A stretch of 45,073 bases of DNA. Source: an uncultured Dehalococcoidia bacterium (GTDB taxonomy: Bacteria > Chloroflexota > Dehalococcoidia > Lucifugimonadales > Australimonadaceae). The notes beneath the pieces are model-generated. The model was given only the letters and a program-made list of their open reading frames with translations, was not told where the DNA came from and did no database searches. Location: contig CAYMJY010000004.1 in assembly GCA_964391355.1 (NCBI GenBank), positions 1 to 45,073 of the forward strand, written 5' to 3'. Both the position numbers and the translations under genes were made by a program. The first letter of the stretch is position 1. Every line of letters starts with the position of its first letter. Positions 21,034 through 28,755 of this stretch are shown in pieces.

Positions 21034-22623
21034 ATGTCTGAAGTAACACTATATGACACCACGCTTCGTGATGGTGCGCAGATGGAAGGGATAAGCTTAT
21101 CGGTTGAAGATAAGCTTAAAATCGCTGGACGCCTCGACCTACTAGGTATTCATTTTATCGAAGGCGGATGGCCAGGGGCCACGCCTAAAGACGATGCATT
21201 TTTCAGAGAAGCGAAACAACTGAACTTAACAAATTCGACCTTGGTTGCCTTTGGGTCAACGCGAAGAGCTGGAGCCTCTGTTAAATCCGATGCACAAGTG
21301 AAAGCTCTCATCGCTTCTGGTGCTCCTGTGGTTACCATTGTCGGAAAAGCTTCCCTATCTCAAGTCGAGACGGTATTAGAGACGTCCATTGAAGAGAACT
21401 TATCGATGATCCGTGAGACGGTAGAGCACCTGAAAAAGCACTCTATTCGTGTAATCTTTGACGCTGAACATTTTTTTGATGGATTTGCAGAAAACCCCGA
21501 ATATGCTCTCAAATGCGTCTCAGTTGCTGCTCAGTCAGGTGCCGAATTTGTAGTACTTTGTGACACTAATGGTGGAACACTGCCTGTGGATGTTTTCAAC
21601 GCGACCCATCGTGTAGTTACCGAAGTAGGTAATATTGTAGGCATTCACTGTCACAACGATGCTGACGTAGCAGTTGCCAACAGCATTGCGGCGGTTCAGG
21701 CTGGTGCAACTCAAGTTCAAGGTACAATTAATGGTTACGGTGAACGTTGTGGCAACACTAACCTTTTAAGCGTGATAGCCAACCTAAAGCTCAAACTCGG
21801 AATCGATTGTGTTAATGACGACCAACTTTCACATCTGACTGAGATTCATCGCTATGTCAGTGAAGTTGCAAACATGCCTCGTTCTCGATATCAAGCGTTT
21901 GTAGGTGACAGTGCATTCAGTCATAAAGGAGGGCTTCATGCATCTGCGATGGCCAAGGATGAGGATTCTTATCAGCATGTAGAGCCATCCTTGATCGGCA
22001 ATAGCACTCACATCTTGGTCTCTGAGCTTTCTGGGAGAGGCAACATAGCTATTAAACTTCAAGAAATGGGCATAGCCAACAAAGTACGCACAGAACAATT
22101 AACTGAACTCGCTAAACTAGTAAAAGAAAAAGAGGCTGAAGGGTTTCAATACGAGGGCGCTGACGCATCATTTAGATTATTAGTAGAGCGTGTGTTGCCA
22201 AGTTATGGCGCTCCATTTGAGTTAGTTGATCTACTAGTTGTGATGGAAAAAGGTAGGCGTGTTCAATCAGACAACTTGGAAAATACAGTATTAACAGAAG
22301 CAATGGTGAAAGTACGAGTCGGTGAATCCCTAGCTCACACAGTCGCAGAAGGGAATGGCCCAGTTAATGCATTGGACCATGCTTTGCGTCGCGCACTTGA
22401 ACAATACTACCCTGTGCTCAAAACTATCAGCCTTACCGATTTTAAAGTCAGAGTAGTTGAACAAACTAAAGACGGTACAGGAGCAGTTGTACGTGTACTG
22501 GTTGAGTCATCAAATGGTGAGAATGTTTGGTCTACGGTAGGAGCTTCGTCTAATATCATAGAAGCGTCATGGCAAGCCCTGTCAGATTCAATTGAGTATG
22601 CGCTTTTAAACTCCAAAGAATAG
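21034..22623 (+). CDS. cimA: citramalate synthase (TIGR00977 type)
   Basis: DTTLRDGAQ, FDAEHFFDG, HCHND, GERCGN, HKGGLH, GNGPVNALD. Confidence 0.92.
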   Translation: MSEVTLYDTTLRDGAQMEGISLSVEDKLKIAGRLDLLGIHFIEGGWPGATPKDDAFFREAKQLNLTNSTLVAFGSTRRAGASVKSDAQVKALIASGAPVVTIVGKASLSQVETVLETSIEENLSMIRETVEHLKKHSIRVIFDAEHFFDGFAENPEYALKCVSVAAQSGAEFVVLCDTNGGTLPVDVFNATHRVVTEVGNIVGIHCHNDADVAVANSIAAVQAGATQVQGTINGYGERCGNTNLLSVIANLKLKLGIDCVNDDQLSHLTEIHRYVSEVANMPRSRYQAFVGDSAFSHKGGLHASAMAKDEDSYQHVEPSLIGNSTHILVSELSGRGNIAIKLQEMGIANKVRTEQLTELAKLVKEKEAEGFQYEGADASFRLLVERVLPSYGAPFELVDLLVVMEKGRRVQSDNLENTVLTEAMVKVRVGESLAHTVAEGNGPVNALDHALRRALEQYYPVLKTISLTDFKVRVVEQTKDGTGAVVRVLVESSNGENVWSTVGASSNIIEASWQALSDSIEYALLNSKE

Positions 22624-22666: not shown

Positions 22667-23938
22667 TTAATAATTATCCATATCCAAAGCAATCGAGGCA
22701 CCGGAATAGGATTTTAACCCAAGCCCTTCGCCGTTCAATGGATTATAAAAAGCCCTCAGCCCCGATCTTCTAATTAAATCACTTGTTCGTAATGCAAGTG
22801 ATTCAGCCAAATCTTCAAAACCATGTCGCTTAAGGCCCCTCCAAATAATCCAATTGGCCTCAATACTGGTTGGCCCTCTCCATGATAATTTCTGATTCCT
22901 CGGATCGAATGAGGGATCAGTAGCAGATACAGTTGATAGTGGATGTCTAACCCAGAATTTACTCCCATCGCTTAAATTGCGATGAACTAATTCTTCAGCA
23001 ATTTTCGATGGAAGACTCCTAATTATCAAAGGAGACAAGCCAGCAATTGTCAACGAGGATGTTCTTCTATCTGCTTGGCCAGTTGTAGCAAAGAAAGCAC
23101 CTCCGTCTCTTGAGTAAAGATGGGCAATTAGTGACTCGGTCATTTTATTTGCTTGATCAGCATAGGCTTCAGCGACATTTGCAGCCCCAAAAGAACTATG
23201 CAACCTTGACATTGTTTCTAGAGAATCTATAAATAGTGCGTTAGTGAGGACATCTTTCGCTCTGAATGCACTTTTGACCATCAAATGTTGTTGATCGTAA
23301 CCAGCCATCGCGTTTCGTAAATCTATTAAGTATCTTCGCGAGTTCAAAGACCAACTGCTGGCAGTGCCCTCAGAAAAACCTAGTTCGGAATCAAACGCAG
23401 GTGAATGAGTGTTCACTGTCTCCTCAGGGCTAATACTAACTAGCAACCCGTCTACATCAACTCTATTTGACCCTATCCAATTGTGGTATCGATCAAGTGG
23501 TTCCATAAATGTAAGAGGCAATGCTTTATCAGTTGTTATTTCAGAAACCCTCTCGACTGCCTGGGCTAACATAGGTGGGTGAATAAGAGCACTATGTCGT
23601 GGGGCAATAGGATCACGGCTTTGAACGCTGGTCCAAACATCCTTCCATGTAAATCTTCGAGCATGCCAATTCGTTTTATGTCCAATAAACCCATCTGAAT
23701 CTTGGCGTGCTAATAAAGATGCTAATTCTTTGATCGCATGGTCGGGCGTCACATGTGCAGTAGCAATTGCGCTGAAGCAAGAGTGCCAGAAGCTTTGACC
23801 GGAATTATTTAACGGCGAGGGACGGATATATGAATATCTGAAACCAGTCAACCTATCGCGACCAGTTCGCAAGTTGATTGAAAGCAAGTGCTCAACTTGA
23901 TTGCGTACTGAATAAGTAAAATCGGAATCAGGATTCAC
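22667..23938 (-). CDS. GH63/MGH1-like (alpha/alpha)6 glycoside hydrolase fold protein with degenerate active site
   Basis: HPPMLA, HSPAFD, WRGPT, NWIIWRGL, YNPLNGEGLG scaffold motifs present; catalytic acidic residues absent (see findings). Confidence 0.8.
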   Translation of the reverse strand: MNPDSDFTYSVRNQVEHLLSINLRTGRDRLTGFRYSYIRPSPLNNSGQSFWHSCFSAIATAHVTPDHAIKELASLLARQDSDGFIGHKTNWHARRFTWKDVWTSVQSRDPIAPRHSALIHPPMLAQAVERVSEITTDKALPLTFMEPLDRYHNWIGSNRVDVDGLLVSISPEETVNTHSPAFDSELGFSEGTASSWSLNSRRYLIDLRNAMAGYDQQHLMVKSAFRAKDVLTNALFIDSLETMSRLHSSFGAANVAEAYADQANKMTESLIAHLYSRDGGAFFATTGQADRRTSSLTIAGLSPLIIRSLPSKIAEELVHRNLSDGSKFWVRHPLSTVSATDPSFDPRNQKLSWRGPTSIEANWIIWRGLKRHGFEDLAESLALRTSDLIRRSGLRAFYNPLNGEGLGLKSYSGASIALDMDNY

Positions 23939-24015
23939 AAGCTATATTATGAAACCCAATGGTAAAAATGAATACCCAAATTATGGCGTTACAAGAATCA
24001 TTGTATTTAACATCA

Positions 24016-26946
24016 TTACTTTAATGCTTGTGCCATGATTTCAACGACATGTTTAGATTTTTTCGTCGTGAAATGGTCTATTTGTTGTCTGCATGATATA
24101 CCGCTTACTGCTATTTCCCATTCACGTTTGTCTGTAGCCTCTATTGCTGGAAATAATTTAAACGCTCCCATTGATTTTGATACACCATAATGCTCAGATT
24201 CGAAGCCAAAAGTACCAGCCATCCCACAACATGCTGAATCAATTAACTCCGCAGAAAAACCGGGGATCGAGTTGAGAACTTTAATTGTCGGCCCAGTTCC
24301 AACAATAGCTTTCTGATGGCAATGTCCATGGACCTGAATGTCCACATTCAGGTCCTGTCGGAATATTGATCCAAAATCTCCCTCATTAATTGCGATCTGC
24401 TCCAATAGCTCATCTAACATCATTGAGGATTTTGCGACAGCTCTAGCCTCATCAGTCTGCAATAGGTCCGGGTACTCATCTCGCAAAGTCAGTAAGCAGG
24501 ACGGTTCAGTTCCTACTATTTTTAACCCTTGTTCGACAAATTTCGTCAAAATTGAAACATTATCCTTAGCCCATTTAGTAGCTAACCCTAGTTGGCCCTT
24601 AGAAATTGCTGGTCTACCGCAACAGCTTTTTTGGTTGATGATGATTACTTCATATCCGCAAGCTTCCAGAAGTTTGACAGCTGCTTGCCCGACTTCTGGA
24701 TGCATAAACTCAGTAAATGTATCGTTGAAATATACGATTTGACCTCGCCAGTTTTCAGTTTTAGAAACCGCTCTAGATTTAAACCATGATGAAAAGCGTT
24801 GACTTGCAAAACTAGGAAGCGGTCTTTTAATTGCTATACCCAAACACAATTTGGCTAGATAGCTCGTCACCGGAAAACGAGAGAAAAAGTTAGAAAGTGG
24901 AGCCATCGCTTGTCCAATTCGACTGATCTTTGCGATATTTGCAAAAGCTTTAACTCGCAACGGAACTCGCCTTACTTCGTAATACTTGGCCAAAACTTCG
25001 GTTTTGAGTTTTGCCATATCTACGTTAGAAGGGCACTCAGCCTTACAGGCCTTGCACTCAACACATAAATCTAATGCGCTATGCAGCCGCTCACTTCTCA
25101 GTTCTTCATAAGGTAATTTTCCAGACAGAATCAACCTCAGTAAGTTAGCTCTGCCCCTAGTAGAATGCTCCTCTTCCTGCGTAACCATGTAAGAAGGGCA
25201 CATGCCCCCATCCGTCCTTCTGCATGCTCCCTGCCCATTACACAATTCAACATGGCTTGCAAAGCCCCCGTCTTCTGAAAAATCCATAACTGTATCGATT
25301 TCTATATTCTTTGTTTCAGGACTCAAGCGCAGAACTTCCCTAATACCAGGAGTTTCAATGATCTTTCCTGGGTTCATAATCCCTTGGGGGTCAAAAGCAT
25401 TCTTCAAATTTTTGAAGGCCTCATAAATTTCTGAGCCAAACATTTTCTCCATGAATGCTCCACGAACTATCCCATCGCCATGTTCTCCTGATAAAGACCC
25501 CTCAAACTCAAGGACTAAATCCGCGACCTGAGACGCGATACTTTCCATCTTGCTGAGTCCCTCTTCAGTCTTTACATTCACTATGGGCCGTATATGTAAG
25601 CACCCAGTCGATGCATGGCCATAGTAAGCAGCCTCTGTATCATGGCTTTTGACTATCTCCTCAAATCTCGCTACATACTCAGGGAGTAGCTCCGGAGAAA
25701 CTGCAGTGTCTTCAACATAAGGTAGTGGCTTTGCATCTCCCTTGACCGCCATAGCGAGTCCTAGTCCTGCTTCCCGCAAAGACCACATATGACGTTGCTG
25801 TGCCGGATCACTCGAAATGATCGTGGCGTAGCCAAGGCCTTTTTTCTCTAAATCTGCTTTAATTCTAGAGAGTTTTGAATCTAGCTCCGCAACAGAATCT
25901 CCATAGAATTCAACAAATATCATCGCCTCAGGATCGCCTTCAACCCAATCAAGCAAATGCCTATATCCAGCATTAGTTTTGCAGTTCCTCAAAATCATTT
26001 CCCCAATCAGCTCAACCGCTGATGGGCCGTGTTGAAGTATTGCAACAGTGGCCTCCATTGACTCCACAAGCCCTCGGAAATGAATCGCTGCTGTTCCTCG
26101 CATCAACGGAACTGGAACTAAATTGACTTTTGCTTCAGTTACAATGGCCAACGTACCTTCAGATGCTCCAACCATTCTTGTTAAATTCATGGGCGCATCG
26201 TTTATAAAATCGTCTAAGTTATACCCCGAGACTCTTCTGAGAATCTTAGGGAAACGCCTCGCCACCTCATCCCGATGGTTAAATGCAATTCTTCGAACTT
26301 CACGGTATAACTGACCTTCTAGTGTTTCCAAGGACATTCTTCGTTCGAGTTCTTGTCCTCCTGCAGAGTCAAACTTTACGGAATTGCCATCTGATAAAAC
26401 CGCCCTTACTTCCAAAATATGATCTAGCGTCTTGCCATAAATCACAGAGTGCGCACCGCAGGAGTTGTTCCCAATTCCACCTCCAACCGTCGCTCTTGCA
26501 CTCGTGACCGGATCTGGCCCATACATCAAGCCATATGGGCGCATATATGCGCTCAAGTGGTTGTTTACGATCCCTGGTTGTACTCGAGCCCAGCGCTGTT
26601 CAGTTTGGACTTCAATAACATTTCTCATGTATTTGGAAAAATCCATAACAATAGCGTGGTTAGTAGTCTGCCCTGCCAAGCCTGTGCCACCACCTCTGGG
26701 GAGTACTGGCACATTGTGCTGGAGTGCAACCTGGACTGTTGCCTCAACATCATCGCTGTTCCGTGGTAGGACAACTCCCACTGGCTCCATCTGATACATT
26801 GAAGCATCAGTAGAATATAAAGCGCGGCTATAGGAGTCCATCCGAACTTCCCCAGAAACCTCGCCTTTTAGTTTTTGGGTGATTTCTTTTAACTCAGTCG
26901 ATGCTAGATCTTTGGCCTTACGAACACTTTCGTAAAGAATAGGCAT
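24016..26946 (-). CDS. FAD-binding and Fe-S-binding oxidoreductase (YdiJ/GlcD-GlcF-type D-2-hydroxyacid dehydrogenase)
   Basis: PRGGGTGLAGQ, GGGIGNNSCG, GEHGDG, CNGQGAC, CVECKACKAEC, CCG domains. Confidence 0.9.
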   Translation of the reverse strand: MPILYESVRKAKDLASTELKEITQKLKGEVSGEVRMDSYSRALYSTDASMYQMEPVGVVLPRNSDDVEATVQVALQHNVPVLPRGGGTGLAGQTTNHAIVMDFSKYMRNVIEVQTEQRWARVQPGIVNNHLSAYMRPYGLMYGPDPVTSARATVGGGIGNNSCGAHSVIYGKTLDHILEVRAVLSDGNSVKFDSAGGQELERRMSLETLEGQLYREVRRIAFNHRDEVARRFPKILRRVSGYNLDDFINDAPMNLTRMVGASEGTLAIVTEAKVNLVPVPLMRGTAAIHFRGLVESMEATVAILQHGPSAVELIGEMILRNCKTNAGYRHLLDWVEGDPEAMIFVEFYGDSVAELDSKLSRIKADLEKKGLGYATIISSDPAQQRHMWSLREAGLGLAMAVKGDAKPLPYVEDTAVSPELLPEYVARFEEIVKSHDTEAAYYGHASTGCLHIRPIVNVKTEEGLSKMESIASQVADLVLEFEGSLSGEHGDGIVRGAFMEKMFGSEIYEAFKNLKNAFDPQGIMNPGKIIETPGIREVLRLSPETKNIEIDTVMDFSEDGGFASHVELCNGQGACRRTDGGMCPSYMVTQEEEHSTRGRANLLRLILSGKLPYEELRSERLHSALDLCVECKACKAECPSNVDMAKLKTEVLAKYYEVRRVPLRVKAFANIAKISRIGQAMAPLSNFFSRFPVTSYLAKLCLGIAIKRPLPSFASQRFSSWFKSRAVSKTENWRGQIVYFNDTFTEFMHPEVGQAAVKLLEACGYEVIIINQKSCCGRPAISKGQLGLATKWAKDNVSILTKFVEQGLKIVGTEPSCLLTLRDEYPDLLQTDEARAVAKSSMMLDELLEQIAINEGDFGSIFRQDLNVDIQVHGHCHQKAIVGTGPTIKVLNSIPGFSAELIDSACCGMAGTFGFESEHYGVSKSMGAFKLFPAIEATDKREWEIAVSGISCRQQIDHFTTKKSKHVVEIMAQALK

Positions 26947-27017: not shown

Positions 27018-28262
27018 ATGTTTACAGCTGAAGGTTCTAATTTAAATCGACGTTGGCGAATGCTAGCTCTAATATGGCTGGTATACGTGTGCTTCGGTAT
27101 CACTGTAGGCAGCTTTCCTCCATTAGTTAGTTTCATATCTGAAGATTTAGGACTATCTAGCACAGAAATGGGCTTAGTCCTTGGTGCGTGGCAACTAGTT
27201 TATATTTTTACTGCTTCCCCAATCGGAAGACTAATAGACAAGTATGGGGTGCGTAAGTCCGTTACAGTTGGTCTGATAATTATTTTGATTTCACTTGTTT
27301 CCAGAACTATTGCTGACAACTTCATAACTCTTTTTTTAACCGTTGCCATTTTTGGGATAGGGGGTCCAATTATTTCAATTGGTGCTCCAAAAGTTGTCTC
27401 CGAATGGTTCCAAGGTACTGAAAGAGGTTTCGCCGCCGGTGTTTATACCACAGCGCCTTTGGCTGGAGTCGCAATAGCTATTGCAACTGCAGCAAGCATA
27501 GTAGAACCAATTACAGGAAGTTGGCGAGGCATCGCTTTAGTATATGGCTCAATTATTTTAGGGGTTTTGATTCTTTGGGTTTTAGCTGCCGTTGATCCTC
27601 CAGACAAAGCAAGTGAAAGTTTCAATGGACGAGATAAAGCAAAGCCCCAAACACTACCTCTTCTAAAAATTACAAACGTTCAAATAATACTCATTTTGGC
27701 TTTAGTAACATTTTTAGCAAGCCATGGTTTGCAAAACTGGCTACCCACACTCCTAACCGATGATGGTATGTCAGTAACCATCGCTGGGAATTGGGTATCC
27801 GCAGCAATAGTAGCCGGTGCGATTAGCCTTGTTCTTATTCCTCTAGTATCAACATATGGAATCAGGCGGTTTGTGATGGGGTCGATGCTTTTAGCATCGT
27901 CTCTTAGTGGATTAGGGTTAGTCTTTTTTGATGGCACTGGCCAGATCATCTCTGTTATGGCTTGGTCGATTGCCAGAAGCCCTATTATTGCCGTTTCAAT
28001 GCTGATATTGATGGATACCAAAGGCGTTGGGAAAGCCAAAATGGGCACCGCAGCAGGGCTATTTTATGCAGTAGCAGAGGTAGGGGGGTTTTCAGGTCCC
28101 TTCATATTGGGTGCGGTTCGCGACATCACCGGAAATCTCGATATAGGCGTTGTTTCAATCTCACTAGCCACAATGGCTTTAATCGCACTAATGAAACTGG
28201 TCCGCGAATCTGCATCCGATATAGAAAGAGACTCTACCCCTAATACCACCCATGTTCCTTAA
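27018..28262 (+). CDS. MFS transporter (CynX/NimT-like)
   Basis: About 12 hydrophobic segments and the GRLIDKYGVR motif A. Confidence 0.88.
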   Translation: MFTAEGSNLNRRWRMLALIWLVYVCFGITVGSFPPLVSFISEDLGLSSTEMGLVLGAWQLVYIFTASPIGRLIDKYGVRKSVTVGLIIILISLVSRTIADNFITLFLTVAIFGIGGPIISIGAPKVVSEWFQGTERGFAAGVYTTAPLAGVAIAIATAASIVEPITGSWRGIALVYGSIILGVLILWVLAAVDPPDKASESFNGRDKAKPQTLPLLKITNVQIILILALVTFLASHGLQNWLPTLLTDDGMSVTIAGNWVSAAIVAGAISLVLIPLVSTYGIRRFVMGSMLLASSLSGLGLVFFDGTGQIISVMAWSIARSPIIAVSMLILMDTKGVGKAKMGTAAGLFYAVAEVGGFSGPFILGAVRDITGNLDIGVVSISLATMALIALMKLVRESASDIERDSTPNTTHVP

Positions 28263-28755
28263 TCAAACCTCGGAGGTACGCAATCTGGCCAATGTGCTGG
28301 ATATTATCGCCAAGAACAATCGATAAAATTTGTGCCAGTGTCATAGAGTCCCCTCCTGGGCGCATGGGTGGGAACTCTTCATCCAAGTCGTTTGGTTCTA
28401 ATTTTGAGATGAATTCGTCTGTTCTCGACTTAACAGCATCCCAAAAACTGATCAATGATTCGGCTGATGCACCTGTAAAGGTGTGCACATTATCAGGAGT
28501 CCACTGAATTTCATTATCGACTATGCCAAATTCTTCAGACCAATTTCCTTCTTCCCATTCCGTTTTCTTGCTTTGGACTCTGGAAAGTAGATTATCTTGC
28601 ACTCTTGTTAGATGCATTGCCAACCAAGCAATAGGGTTGGACCTCTCACCACCTGGCTGTGCAACTAACTCGCTGTCGGTAAGACCATCAAGCGACCTTT
28701 TGAATGTATTCTCAGCCCTGTTTAAAATTGTACCGAATAGTAAATTTGGCTCCAT
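28240..28755 (-). CDS. DinB/DUF664 family protein (thiol S-transferase-like)
   Basis: NPIAWLAMHLTRVQD and QHIGQIAYLRG, typical of the DinB four-helix family. Confidence 0.85.
   Translation of the reverse strand: MEPNLLFGTILNRAENTFKRSLDGLTDSELVAQPGGERSNPIAWLAMHLTRVQDNLLSRVQSKKTEWEEGNWSEEFGIVDNEIQWTPDNVHTFTGASAESLISFWDAVKSRTDEFISKLEPNDLDEEFPPMRPGGDSMTLAQILSIVLGDNIQHIGQIAYLRGLIKEHGWY

What the first reader, a model, noticed from the sequence alone, without database searches (positions are those of the whole stretch)
22667..23938. GH63/MGH1-fold protein that has lost all three key carboxylates: candidate pseudo-enzyme
The intact 423-codon ORF keeps the scaffold motifs of mannosyl/glucosylglycerate hydrolases, but the active-site motifs are changed. 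W-x-W-D becomes S-F-W-H (about 23776-23800). E-S-G-x-D-N-S-P, which holds the catalytic acid, becomes E-T-V-N-T-H-S-P (about 23398-23426). E-Y-Y, which holds the catalytic base, becomes A-F-Y (about 22745-22753). Targeted loss without frameshifts points to a selected non-hydrolytic role, such as sugar sensing, lectin activity or a scaffold subunit, or to new His-based chemistry (two new His residues sit at these positions).
Basis: partly seen in the sequence, partly recalled or inferred. Interest (0 to 1): 0.62.

Follow-up and report, generated by a model that had tools for sequence, protein, structure and literature searches.

The report
Dead-site sugar hydrolase homologue kept by selection
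A marine SAR202 bacterium with a very small genome keeps an intact relative of sugar-splitting enzymes (GH63/mannosylglycerate-hydrolase type) that has lost the acid, the base and most of the sugar-holding residues. The gene is still under strong purifying selection, so it has been kept for a job other than the usual hydrolysis.

Summary
ORF 22667-23938(-) encodes a 423-aa MGH1-like/GH63-fold protein: Pfam PF22422 E=6e-50, AlphaFold pLDDT 95.9, TM 0.81-0.88 to Thermus MGH and Mycolicibacterium GgH. It lacks the catalytic acid (Asp->Thr177), the base (Glu->Ala396) and the sugar-anchoring Asp (->His52). Six further residues of the -1 sugar site are also replaced, including three Trp; 9 of 13 family-wide conserved site residues are changed.

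It is not decaying. An 80%-identical orthologue found in at least 25 ocean assemblies carries the same replacements. dN/dS is about 0.05 with saturated synonymous sites. The protein diverges about as slowly as the neighbouring FAD/Fe-S dehydrogenase and more slowly than MFS or YbeY. The replaced residues persist through synonymous codon changes. It is the only MGH1-like copy in a 1.43-Mb genome.

Context is new. Canonical orthologues sit at the same locus in other SAR202 genomes. Within this orthologue group the acid Asp was lost at least 12 separate times, but the base only once, here.

The role is unresolved: a non-catalytic pseudo-enzyme or an enzyme with new chemistry. A lectin for the old sugar is unlikely. 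It is a new variant of a known kind, and interest is moderate.

The parts
22667..23938 (-). Intact 423-codon gene for an MGH1-like / GH63-fold (alpha/alpha)6 protein. GTG start, with an in-frame TAG two codons upstream. No signal peptide is evident.
23783..23806 (-). N45...S49-F-W51-H52. These replace Tyr36, Trp40 and Asp43 of MhGgH. W51 (= Trp42) is kept.
   Evidence: contact list from PMC6608630
23579..23581 (-). H120 replaces the conserved sugar-binding Gln (MhGgH Gln115; I-Q-P-P becomes I-H-P-P).
23399..23422 (-). E173-T-V-N-T177-H-S-P180. The catalytic-acid Asp (MhGgH Asp182) is now T177 and Gly180 is now V175. The invariant E173 is kept.
23330..23332 (-). Y203 replaces an Arg that is at least 96% conserved in canonical SAR202 orthologues.
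22859..22867 (-). S358-I-E360. Trp381 of MhGgH is now Ser, and a conserved Asn is now Glu, a new carboxylate near the site.
22745..22753 (-). A396-F-Y. The catalytic-base Glu (MhGgH Glu419) is now Ala. This is unique to this lineage among 165 family members that have a residue at this position.
22700..22702 (-). G413 replaces the conserved Trp (MhGgH Trp436).
24016..26946 (-). Upstream gene on the same strand, 77-bp spacer: a 976-aa YdiJ-like FAD-linked oxidase with 4Fe-4S and CCG domains. The adjacency is conserved in SAR202 relatives, but this is a core gene.
27018..28262 (+). MFS transporter, divergent from the oxidase gene. It is part of the conserved neighbourhood.
21034..22623 (+). Citramalate/isopropylmalate-synthase-type gene, convergent with the MGH-like gene (43-bp gap). 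It is the conserved right-hand border of the locus.

Best explanation
The gene encodes a folded cytoplasmic (alpha/alpha)6-barrel protein descended from a canonical SAR202 MGH1-like alpha-glycoside hydrolase. The ancestral gene sat at this same locus, between the YdiJ-like dehydrogenase gene and cimA.

In the lineage leading to this genome and its 80% relative, the -1 sugar site was taken apart. The acid became Thr, the base Ala and the sugar-anchoring Asp His. The sugar-binding Gln became His, and three stacking Trp became Ser, Ser and Gly. A Tyr became Asn and a conserved Arg became Tyr. About 20 further nearby positions were repacked. The protein therefore cannot run the GH63 inverting acid/base mechanism and is unlikely to bind the ancestral gluco/manno-pyranoside. 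(Shown: the residue states. Inferred: the loss of activity.)

After this remodelling the protein, including the replaced residues, has been held nearly constant by purifying selection in a widespread oceanic population (shown). It therefore serves a hydrolysis-independent function.

My committed reading is a repurposed derivative. The more likely form is a non-catalytic ligand-binding or partner protein, that is, a pseudo-enzyme. The less likely form is an enzyme with new chemistry in the rebuilt His/Glu-lined pocket. The at least 12 independent erosions of the same site in sister lineages suggest that hydrolysis is often dispensable for whatever keeps this gene (inferred).
For: Homology and fold:
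- PF22422 matches at 171 bits.
- The AlphaFold model has pLDDT 95.9 and pTM 0.95.
- Foldseek gives TM 0.81-0.88 to Tt8MGH and 0.85 to MhGgH.

Residue losses:
- The losses were mapped on the published MhGgH contact list.
- D43A, D182A and E419A each abolish MhGgH activity, and D43A also abolishes binding (PMC6608630).
- Of 148 positions at least 90% conserved in 25 canonical SAR202 orthologues, the window protein differs at 33, and 26 of these are shared with P0002.

Selection:
- Against P0002/L090, dN/dS is 0.045-0.095 and synonymous sites are saturated.
- dN is 0.10-0.12, compared with 0.09-0.10 for FADox, 0.17-0.19 for MFS and 0.24 for YbeY.
- At equal FADox divergence, canonical enzyme pairs are 59-65% or 74% identical, whereas the variant pair is 80% identical.
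- The tree path is 0.24 for the variant pair against 0.43 for a canonical pair.
- H52, T177, Y203, S358, E360 and N45 are kept through different synonymous codons.
- 23 of 26 pocket positions are identical in all intact members from at least 25 assemblies, including Tara.

Genomic setting:
- It is the only MGH1-like copy in a 1.43-Mb, 92%-complete genome.
- In this bacterial family the gene is readily deleted; it is absent from 35 of 57 genomes.
- Canonical orthologues sit at the same syntenic locus.
Against:
- Only two sub-lineages carry the full set of changes, so site-specific constraint is inferred from a single deep comparison.
- Pocket positions are not significantly more conserved than the protein average (3 of 26 differ, against about 20% overall). 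The pocket itself may therefore not be the selected element.
- New or retained carboxylates (E172, E173, E360) and three His lie near the site.
- The long stem branch is not gene-specific. All genes of this genome are comparably diverged.
Confidence: 0.72

Rival explanations
1. Neo-enzyme. The rebuilt pocket catalyses a different, non-GH63 reaction on a different substrate, for example His/Glu acid-base chemistry such as isomerisation or elimination, or a metal-dependent reaction. The pocket contains H52, H87, H120, E173, E360, Y203 and Y411, and about 400 cubic angstroms of side-chain volume have been removed.
For: - The new polar residues are conserved through synonymous turnover.
- Three Trp were replaced by small residues, with a net change of -410 cubic angstroms at 11 site positions.
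- An independent lineage, P0012, reached the same S49/H52/H120/S358 state through different Ser codons. The AU test rejects common origin at p=0.0002.
- From general knowledge, (alpha/alpha)6 barrels host His-based epimerases (AGE family) and lyases.
Against: - Q120->H and W358->S are the usual replacements whenever these sites erode: 6 of 8 and 8 of 11 events. The parallelism with P0012 is therefore only weakly informative, at roughly p=0.02 on my estimate.
- P0012 lacks H87 and E360 and keeps the base Glu.
- Hydrophobic gains (G175V, A237I, A408L) may simply refill the cavity.
- No candidate substrate can be named from the neighbourhood.
Confidence: 0.28
2. It is still a glycosidase. The catalytic carboxylates have moved (for example to E172 or E360, with E173) and the specificity has changed. 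On this reading it is a divergent active hydrolase rather than a dead one.
For: - E360 replaces a conserved pocket Asn. E172 sits at the position of substrate-contacting Trp177 of MhGgH. E173 is invariant.
- From general knowledge, the catalytic base occupies different positions in subfamilies of the inverting (alpha/alpha)6 family GH8.
Against: - Sugar recognition was dismantled as well as acid/base catalysis: the Asp43, Gln115, Trp40, Trp381, Trp436 and Tyr36 equivalents are all replaced.
- E/D at position 172 is common in canonical members, which still need the canonical Asp and Glu.
- No other member of 169 lacks the base.
Confidence: 0.1
3. Neutral decay. The gene is a dying pseudogene that has not yet acquired a stop codon.
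For: - The gene is accessory and often lost; it is present in 22 of 57 family genomes.
- Sister lineages show at least 12 independent erosions of the acid, often on long branches.
Against: - dN/dS is about 0.05 with dS above 2.
- The protein is 80% identical across a divergence at which YbeY is 68% and MFS 74% identical.
- All of the full-length members from the at least 25 assemblies are intact.
- The genome is streamlined to 1.43 Mb.
Confidence: 0.02
4. The protein is an obligate accessory subunit or chaperone of the adjacent YdiJ-like FAD/Fe-S dehydrogenase.
For: - The two genes are on the same strand with a 77-bp spacer that has no promoter-like or terminator-like site.
- The adjacency is conserved in most SAR202 relatives and in the P0002-type contig.
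Against: - The dehydrogenase is present in 53 of 57 genomes, including whole genera that lack the MGH-like gene.
- Other genes (Amidohydro_2, a Rieske oxygenase) are inserted between the two genes in some relatives.
- The two genes lie on different contigs in four genomes: G011, G016, G024 and G031.
- The adjacency can be explained by conserved core gene order.
Confidence: 0.1

Closest known systems
Thermus thermophilus HB8 mannosylglycerate hydrolase Tt8MGH (PDB 2Z07, 4WVA-C), GH63
   Same: It is the best sequence and fold match: phmmer E=1.5e-19, profile E=9e-90, TM 0.81-0.88, about 24% identity. It shares the (alpha/alpha)6 barrel, the cap and a similar length.
   Different: Tt8MGH has W-x-W-D, E-S-G-M-D and R-E-Y-Y. 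The window protein has S-x-W-H, E-T-V-N-T and R-A-F-Y. The glycerate-site residues Tyr, Arg and Tyr are also absent.
Mycolicibacterium hassiacum glucosylglycerate hydrolase MhGgH (PDB 5OHC, 5OI1, 5OIE, 6Q5T)
   Same: It has the same fold (TM 0.85). Its published ligand-contact list could be mapped residue by residue onto the window protein.
   Different: 9 of 13 family-wide conserved site residues are replaced. The window protein naturally combines the equivalents of the three inactivating mutations D43A, D182A and E419A. It scores 93.7 bits against the NCBIfam GgH equivalog cut-off of 550.
Canonical SAR202 orthologue P0003 (contig L087) and the G005 orthologue (L042)
   Same: They occupy the same locus: DinB, MFS, FADox, [slot], MGH-like, cimA, hydrolase, LLM, PRTase. 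They are 55-58% identical and form the sister group in the tree.
   Different: They keep every catalytic and sugar-site residue. P0003 has an Amidohydro_2 gene in the slot that is empty in the window.
Eroded SAR202 orthologues (P0012; the P0016/P0232/P0233/P0230 clade; L022/P0239; L009/P0242; L013/P0253; P0247; P0229; P0017)
   Same: They belong to the same orthologue group and, where checked, sit at the same locus. They show independent loss of the acid Asp, Asp52, Gln120, Trp358 and Trp413.
   Different: All keep the base Glu, and none has the full set of changes. Long-term purifying selection after the loss was shown here only for the window/P0002 lineage.
Glycosidase-derived pseudo-enzymes in other folds or families: chitinase-like lectins (GH18), heparanase-2, and the GH15-like domains of phosphorylase kinase alpha/beta (from general knowledge; heparanase-2 is mentioned in PMC12406646)
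   Same: The principle is the same: a glycosidase fold is kept under selection after loss of the catalytic carboxylates.
   Different: These are different families and mostly eukaryotic, and many of them retain glycan binding. Here the sugar-binding residues are also replaced, and the host is a streamlined marine bacterium.

Membership tests
Pfam MGH1-like_GH (PF22422) / GH63-clan fold | Full-length match to the family HMM above the gathering score | tested here: met
   171.2 bits against a cut-off of 27; residues 48-412 match profile positions 4-354 of 356
Pfam MGH1-like_GH (PF22422) / GH63-clan fold | (alpha/alpha)6 barrel with cap, superposable on solved members | tested here: met
   AlphaFold pLDDT 95.9; Foldseek TM 0.81-0.88 (Tt8MGH), 0.85 (MhGgH), 0.75 (YgjK)
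GH63-type inverting alpha-glycosidase (functional membership) | Catalytic general-acid Asp (MhGgH Asp182) | tested here: not met
   Thr177. Asp is present in 158 of 169 family members.
GH63-type inverting alpha-glycosidase (functional membership) | Catalytic general-base Glu (MhGgH Glu419) | tested here: not met
   Ala396. Glu is present in 162 of 165 members; Ala occurs only in this lineage.
GH63-type inverting alpha-glycosidase (functional membership) | Residues of the -1 sugar subsite (Tyr36, Trp40, Trp42, Asp43, Gln115, Gly180, Trp376, Trp381, Trp436) | tested here: not met
   Only the Trp42 and Trp376 equivalents are kept. The others are now N45, S49, H52, H120, V175, S358 and G413.
Glucosylglycerate / mannosylglycerate hydrolase (NCBIfam NF047898 equivalog) | Score above the equivalog cut-off, and the glycerate (+1) site residues Tyr88, Arg216, Tyr222 and Tyr375 | tested here: not met
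   93.7 bits against a cut-off of 550. The +1 residues are absent here and also in canonical SAR202 orthologues. No MpgS (PF09488) is found in any of the 57 family genomes.
GH37 trehalase (the name given to the P0002 record by its source) | Full-length trehalase domain with catalytic Asp and Glu | tested here: not met
   PF01204 matches only residues 190-384 (31.8 bits) and is far out-scored by PF22422. The catalytic positions are Thr and Ala.
Pseudo-enzyme (general concept) | Clear homologue of an enzyme family that lacks its essential catalytic residues | tested here: met
Pseudo-enzyme (general concept) | Maintained by purifying selection after the loss | tested here: met
   dN/dS 0.045-0.095; dN comparable to the core dehydrogenase; intact in at least 25 assemblies
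Pseudo-enzyme (general concept) | Absence of the ancestral (or any) catalytic activity | not testable with these tools
   This needs purified protein and assays.

The most novel reading that the evidence does not exclude
The GH63-type (alpha/alpha)6 barrel has been converted in oceanic SAR202 into an enzyme with non-glycosidase chemistry. The pocket would be His/Glu-lined (H52, H87, H120, E173, E360), possibly metal-binding, and would act on an unidentified marine metabolite. The many partly eroded sister lineages would be evolutionary intermediates on the way to this or similar activities.
Probability: 0.25. Interest if true: 0.8.

Novelty: new variant of a known kind. Interest (0 to 1): 0.58.

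Why it matters
Glycosidase-derived pseudo-enzymes are known mainly from eukaryotes and from other folds. I found no paper that names both SAR202 and mannosylglycerate; I did not search the literature for catalytically dead GH63/MGH1-like members as such.

This case is unusually clean. The acid, the base and the sugar-anchoring Asp are all gone. The canonical ancestor state is preserved at the same locus in sister genomes. Purifying selection after the loss can be measured against neighbouring genes. The host is an abundant, uncultured, genome-streamlined ocean bacterium, in which useless genes are quickly deleted.

The at least 12 independent erosions of the same active site in one orthologue group form a natural series for studying how enzymes lose or change function. 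There is also a practical point: public annotation calls these proteins 'trehalase' or 'glycogen debranching enzyme', which would inflate the inferred carbohydrate-degrading capacity of SAR202.

Tried and rejected
1. A gene-specific burst of evolution on the stem branch was rejected. The stem is long (0.62-0.72), but every neighbouring gene of this genome is equally diverged from L087 and L042: MFS 58%, PRTase 54%, DinB 60%.

2. A common origin or recombination between the window protein and P0012, which shares S49/H52/H120/S358, was rejected. The AU test gives p=0.0002. The Ser codons are AGY in one lineage and TCN in the other, and no local identity peak is seen.

3. Using that parallelism as strong proof of a shared new function was downgraded. 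Q120H and W358S are the commonest replacements in all eroded lineages.

4. Recycling of self-made mannosylglycerate was rejected. No MpgS (PF09488) is found in any of the 57 family genomes, and the +1 glycerate residues are absent even in canonical orthologues.

5. An obligate partnership with the adjacent dehydrogenase is not supported by the phyletic pattern.

6. The scan of genome contigs with the single protein found nothing. The alignment-based scan gave relatives and their names. The metagenome scan gave only the P0002-type locus.

7. The promoter and terminator scan of the spacers found nothing above shuffled expectation.

8. The 'stops inside' reported for the G040 and G049 orthologues are only the natural terminal stops.

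10. Pocket geometry (His-His-Glu distances, cavity volume) could not be measured, because the model's coordinates are not exposed. Only residue-volume arithmetic was possible.
Full report
**The object.** ORF 22667..23938 on the minus strand is intact, with 423 codons and a GTG start. An in-frame TAG lies two codons upstream of the start. The protein matches Pfam MGH1-like_GH (PF22422) over nearly its whole length, E=6e-50 and 171 bits against a cut-off of 27. It has only partial, weak matches to Trehalase and Glyco_hydro_63. It falls far short of the NCBIfam glucosylglycerate-hydrolase equivalog, 93.7 bits against a cut-off of 550. Its best solved relatives are Thermus Tt8MGH (2z07, 4wva-c), Mycolicibacterium MhGgH (5ohc and others) and, more distantly, E. 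coli YgjK. An AlphaFold2 model built on 86 homologues is very confident, with pLDDT 95.9 and pTM 0.95. Foldseek places it on Tt8MGH at TM 0.81-0.88 and on MhGgH at TM 0.85. The fold assignment is secure.

**Check of the observation.**
- Q-W-L-W-D has become Q-S-F-W-H (S49-H52, window 23783-23794).
- W-E-S-G-M-D-N-S-P has become E-E-T-V-N-T-H-S-P (E173-P180, window 23399-23422).
- R-E-Y-Y has become R-A-F-Y (window 22745-22753).

The MhGgH paper identifies Asp182 as the acid, Glu419 as the base and Asp43 as a substrate anchor. D43A, D182A and E419A are each inactive, and D43A no longer binds substrate (PMC6608630). I rebuilt the MhGgH and Tt8MGH sequences from the profile alignment and aligned them with the family. 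This gave the following mapping:

| MhGgH residue | Window protein |
|---|---|
| Tyr36 | N45 |
| Trp40 | S49 |
| Trp42 | W51 (kept) |
| Asp43 | H52 |
| His78 | H87 (kept) |
| Gln115 | H120 |
| Glu178 | E173 (kept) |
| Gly180 | V175 |
| Asp182 | T177 |
| Trp376 | W353 (kept) |
| Trp381 | S358 |
| Glu419 | A396 |
| Trp436 | G413 |

Nine of 13 family-wide conserved site residues are therefore replaced, not three. Among 169 diverse family members, 146 carry the full D-D-E triad. Ala at the base position occurs only in this protein and its close relative. Residue-volume arithmetic over 11 site positions gives a net loss of about 410 cubic angstroms. Hydrophobic gains nearby (G175V, A237I, A408L) may refill part of that space.

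**Who carries it.** The assembly is 1.43 Mb in 101 contigs, 92% complete, and holds a single MGH1-like gene. The relatives' records are named Dehalococcoidia, SAR202 cluster or Chloroflexota MAGs. The large protein collection contains only one other cluster with the same site, P0002, at 80% identity. Its 25 members come from NCBI, ENA, JGI, Logan and Tara assemblies. All listed full-length members are intact, and 23 of 26 site positions are identical to the window protein. The NCBI record for P0002 is labelled 'Gammaproteobacteria bacterium, alpha,alpha-trehalase'. Its 2.2-kb contig and the longer metagenome contig L090 nevertheless have the SAR202 gene order, so that label is probably a binning and annotation error.

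**Selection.** Between the window gene and the P0002-type gene, dN/dS is 0.045 (NG86), 0.05 (ML) or 0.095 (LWL85). Synonymous sites are saturated, and identity by codon position is 83%, 94% and 48%. The table compares this gene with its neighbours, measured on the same pair of genomes.

| Gene | dN | Amino-acid identity |
|---|---|---|
| MGH-like | 0.10-0.12 | 80% |
| YdiJ-like dehydrogenase (FADox) | 0.09-0.10 | 85% |
| MFS transporter | 0.17-0.19 | 74% |
| YbeY | 0.24 | 68% |

Canonical SAR202 genome pairs with a similar dehydrogenase divergence have MGH identities of only 59-65% or 74%. The tree path between the two variants (0.24) is shorter than between canonical orthologues of comparable genomic distance (0.43). 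H52, T177, Y203, S358, E360 and N45 are encoded by different synonymous codons in the two lineages, so these residues have been kept through mutational turnover. In this bacterial family the gene is absent from 35 of 57 genomes, so unneeded copies are removed. Neutral decay is excluded.

**Origin.** The locus is orthologous across the family. The gene order DinB, MFS, FADox, [variable slot], MGH-like, cimA, hydrolase, LLM monooxygenase, PRTase recurs in relatives. It is almost gene-for-gene identical on the contig of the canonical orthologue P0003, which carries an Amidohydro_2 gene in the slot. In the tree, the window protein and P0002 are sister to canonical P0003 (95/90). The long stem branch is not a gene-specific burst, because all neighbouring genes of this genome are similarly diverged.

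**Recurrent erosion.** Many SAR202 orthologues have partly eroded sites. On a 78-row tree, the minimum numbers of independent losses are:
- acid Asp: 12
- Trp358: 11
- Trp413: 9
- Asp52: 8
- Gln120: 7
- base Glu: 1 (this lineage only)

P0012 sits at the orthologous locus and has the same S49/H52/H120/S358 state. The AU test rejects a common origin (p=0.0002). Its Ser codons are TCG and TCC against AGC and AGY here, and no recombination signal is seen. Q120H and W358S are, however, the commonest replacements wherever these sites erode. I therefore treat this parallelism as weak evidence for a shared new function.

**What the canonical ancestor did.** The -1 site of the canonical orthologues is that of an alpha-gluco/mannosidase. 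The glycerate-binding residues of MhGgH and Tt8MGH (Tyr88, Arg216, Tyr222, Tyr375) are not conserved in them. No mannosyl-3-phosphoglycerate synthase is found in any of the 57 family genomes. They are thus MGH1-like hydrolases of unknown aglycone specificity. The adjacent 976-aa FAD/4Fe-4S/CCG oxidase is a core gene, present in 53 of 57 genomes. Other genes can lie between it and the MGH-like gene. The adjacency therefore does not prove a functional link, although the 77-bp same-strand spacer has no promoter-like or terminator-like site.

**Interpretation.** The following points are shown:
- The fold is intact.
- The GH63 catalytic machinery and most of the sugar site are gone.
- The gene and its replaced residues are under strong purifying selection in a widespread marine population.

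The following are inferred. The protein cannot hydrolyse by the family mechanism. It is unlikely to bind the ancestral sugar. It serves a hydrolysis-independent role.

I cannot decide between a non-catalytic binding or partner protein (favoured, given the repeated tolerance of site erosion in sister lineages) and a new catalytic activity in the rebuilt His/Glu-lined pocket. A glycosidase with relocated carboxylates (E172, E360) remains a minor possibility. The tools gave no access to expression data or to model coordinates.

**Comparison and novelty.** Pseudo-glycosidases are an established kind; examples are GH18 chitinase-like lectins, heparanase-2 and the GH15-like domains of phosphorylase kinase (general knowledge). 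My literature searches were narrow. The three-term search (glucosylglycerate hydrolase, GH63, catalytic) returned only papers on active enzymes, and no paper names both SAR202 and mannosylglycerate. I did not search specifically for catalytically dead GH63/MGH1-like members, so their absence from the literature is not established. I rate this a new variant of a known kind, of moderate interest. It would rise to high interest if the pocket proves catalytic.

Noticed in passing
L027 (GCA_022450965.1 contig JAKUNQ010000251) and protein P0002: The 80% orthologue is deposited as 'alpha,alpha-trehalase [Gammaproteobacteria bacterium]'. Its contig and the longer metagenome contig L090 have the SAR202 gene order (tau, YbeY, DinB, MFS, FADox, MGH-like). 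This is probably a mis-binned contig and a misleading product name.
   Followed up: partly
L087:8717-9967; L091:8671-9954; window 23939-24015: The slot between the dehydrogenase gene and the MGH-like gene is variable. It holds an Amidohydro_2 gene in the P0003 genome and a Rieske/LigXa_C oxygenase in the P0012 genome, where an arylsulfotransferase and a glyoxalase follow the MGH-like gene. In the window it is empty (77 bp).
   Followed up: partly
SAR202 orthologues P0230/P0016/P0232/P0233, L022/P0239, L009/P0242, L013/P0253, P0247, P0229, P0017: The active site has eroded many separate times in one orthologue group: the acid Asp was lost at least 12 times, while the base Glu is almost never lost. 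The P0230-P0016-P0232-P0233 clade looks like a stepwise series. Whether these copies are constrained or decaying was not tested.
   Followed up: partly
L087:2207-4399 versus window 28240-28755: The close relative carries four tandem DinB/MST-family genes where the window has one, plus several extra small genes. This is consistent with genome streamlining in the window's lineage.
   Followed up: no
window 23938-23950: The window gene starts at GTG, with an in-frame TAG two codons upstream. The P0002-type gene starts at an ATG three codons further upstream (MIAVNPDS...). The start codon has shifted between the two lineages.
   Followed up: partly
window-wide: Every gene compared is more diverged in this genome than between two other genera of the family (for example PRTase 54% against 81%, MFS 58% against 73%). 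This suggests a fast-evolving or deep-branching streamlined lineage.
   Followed up: no
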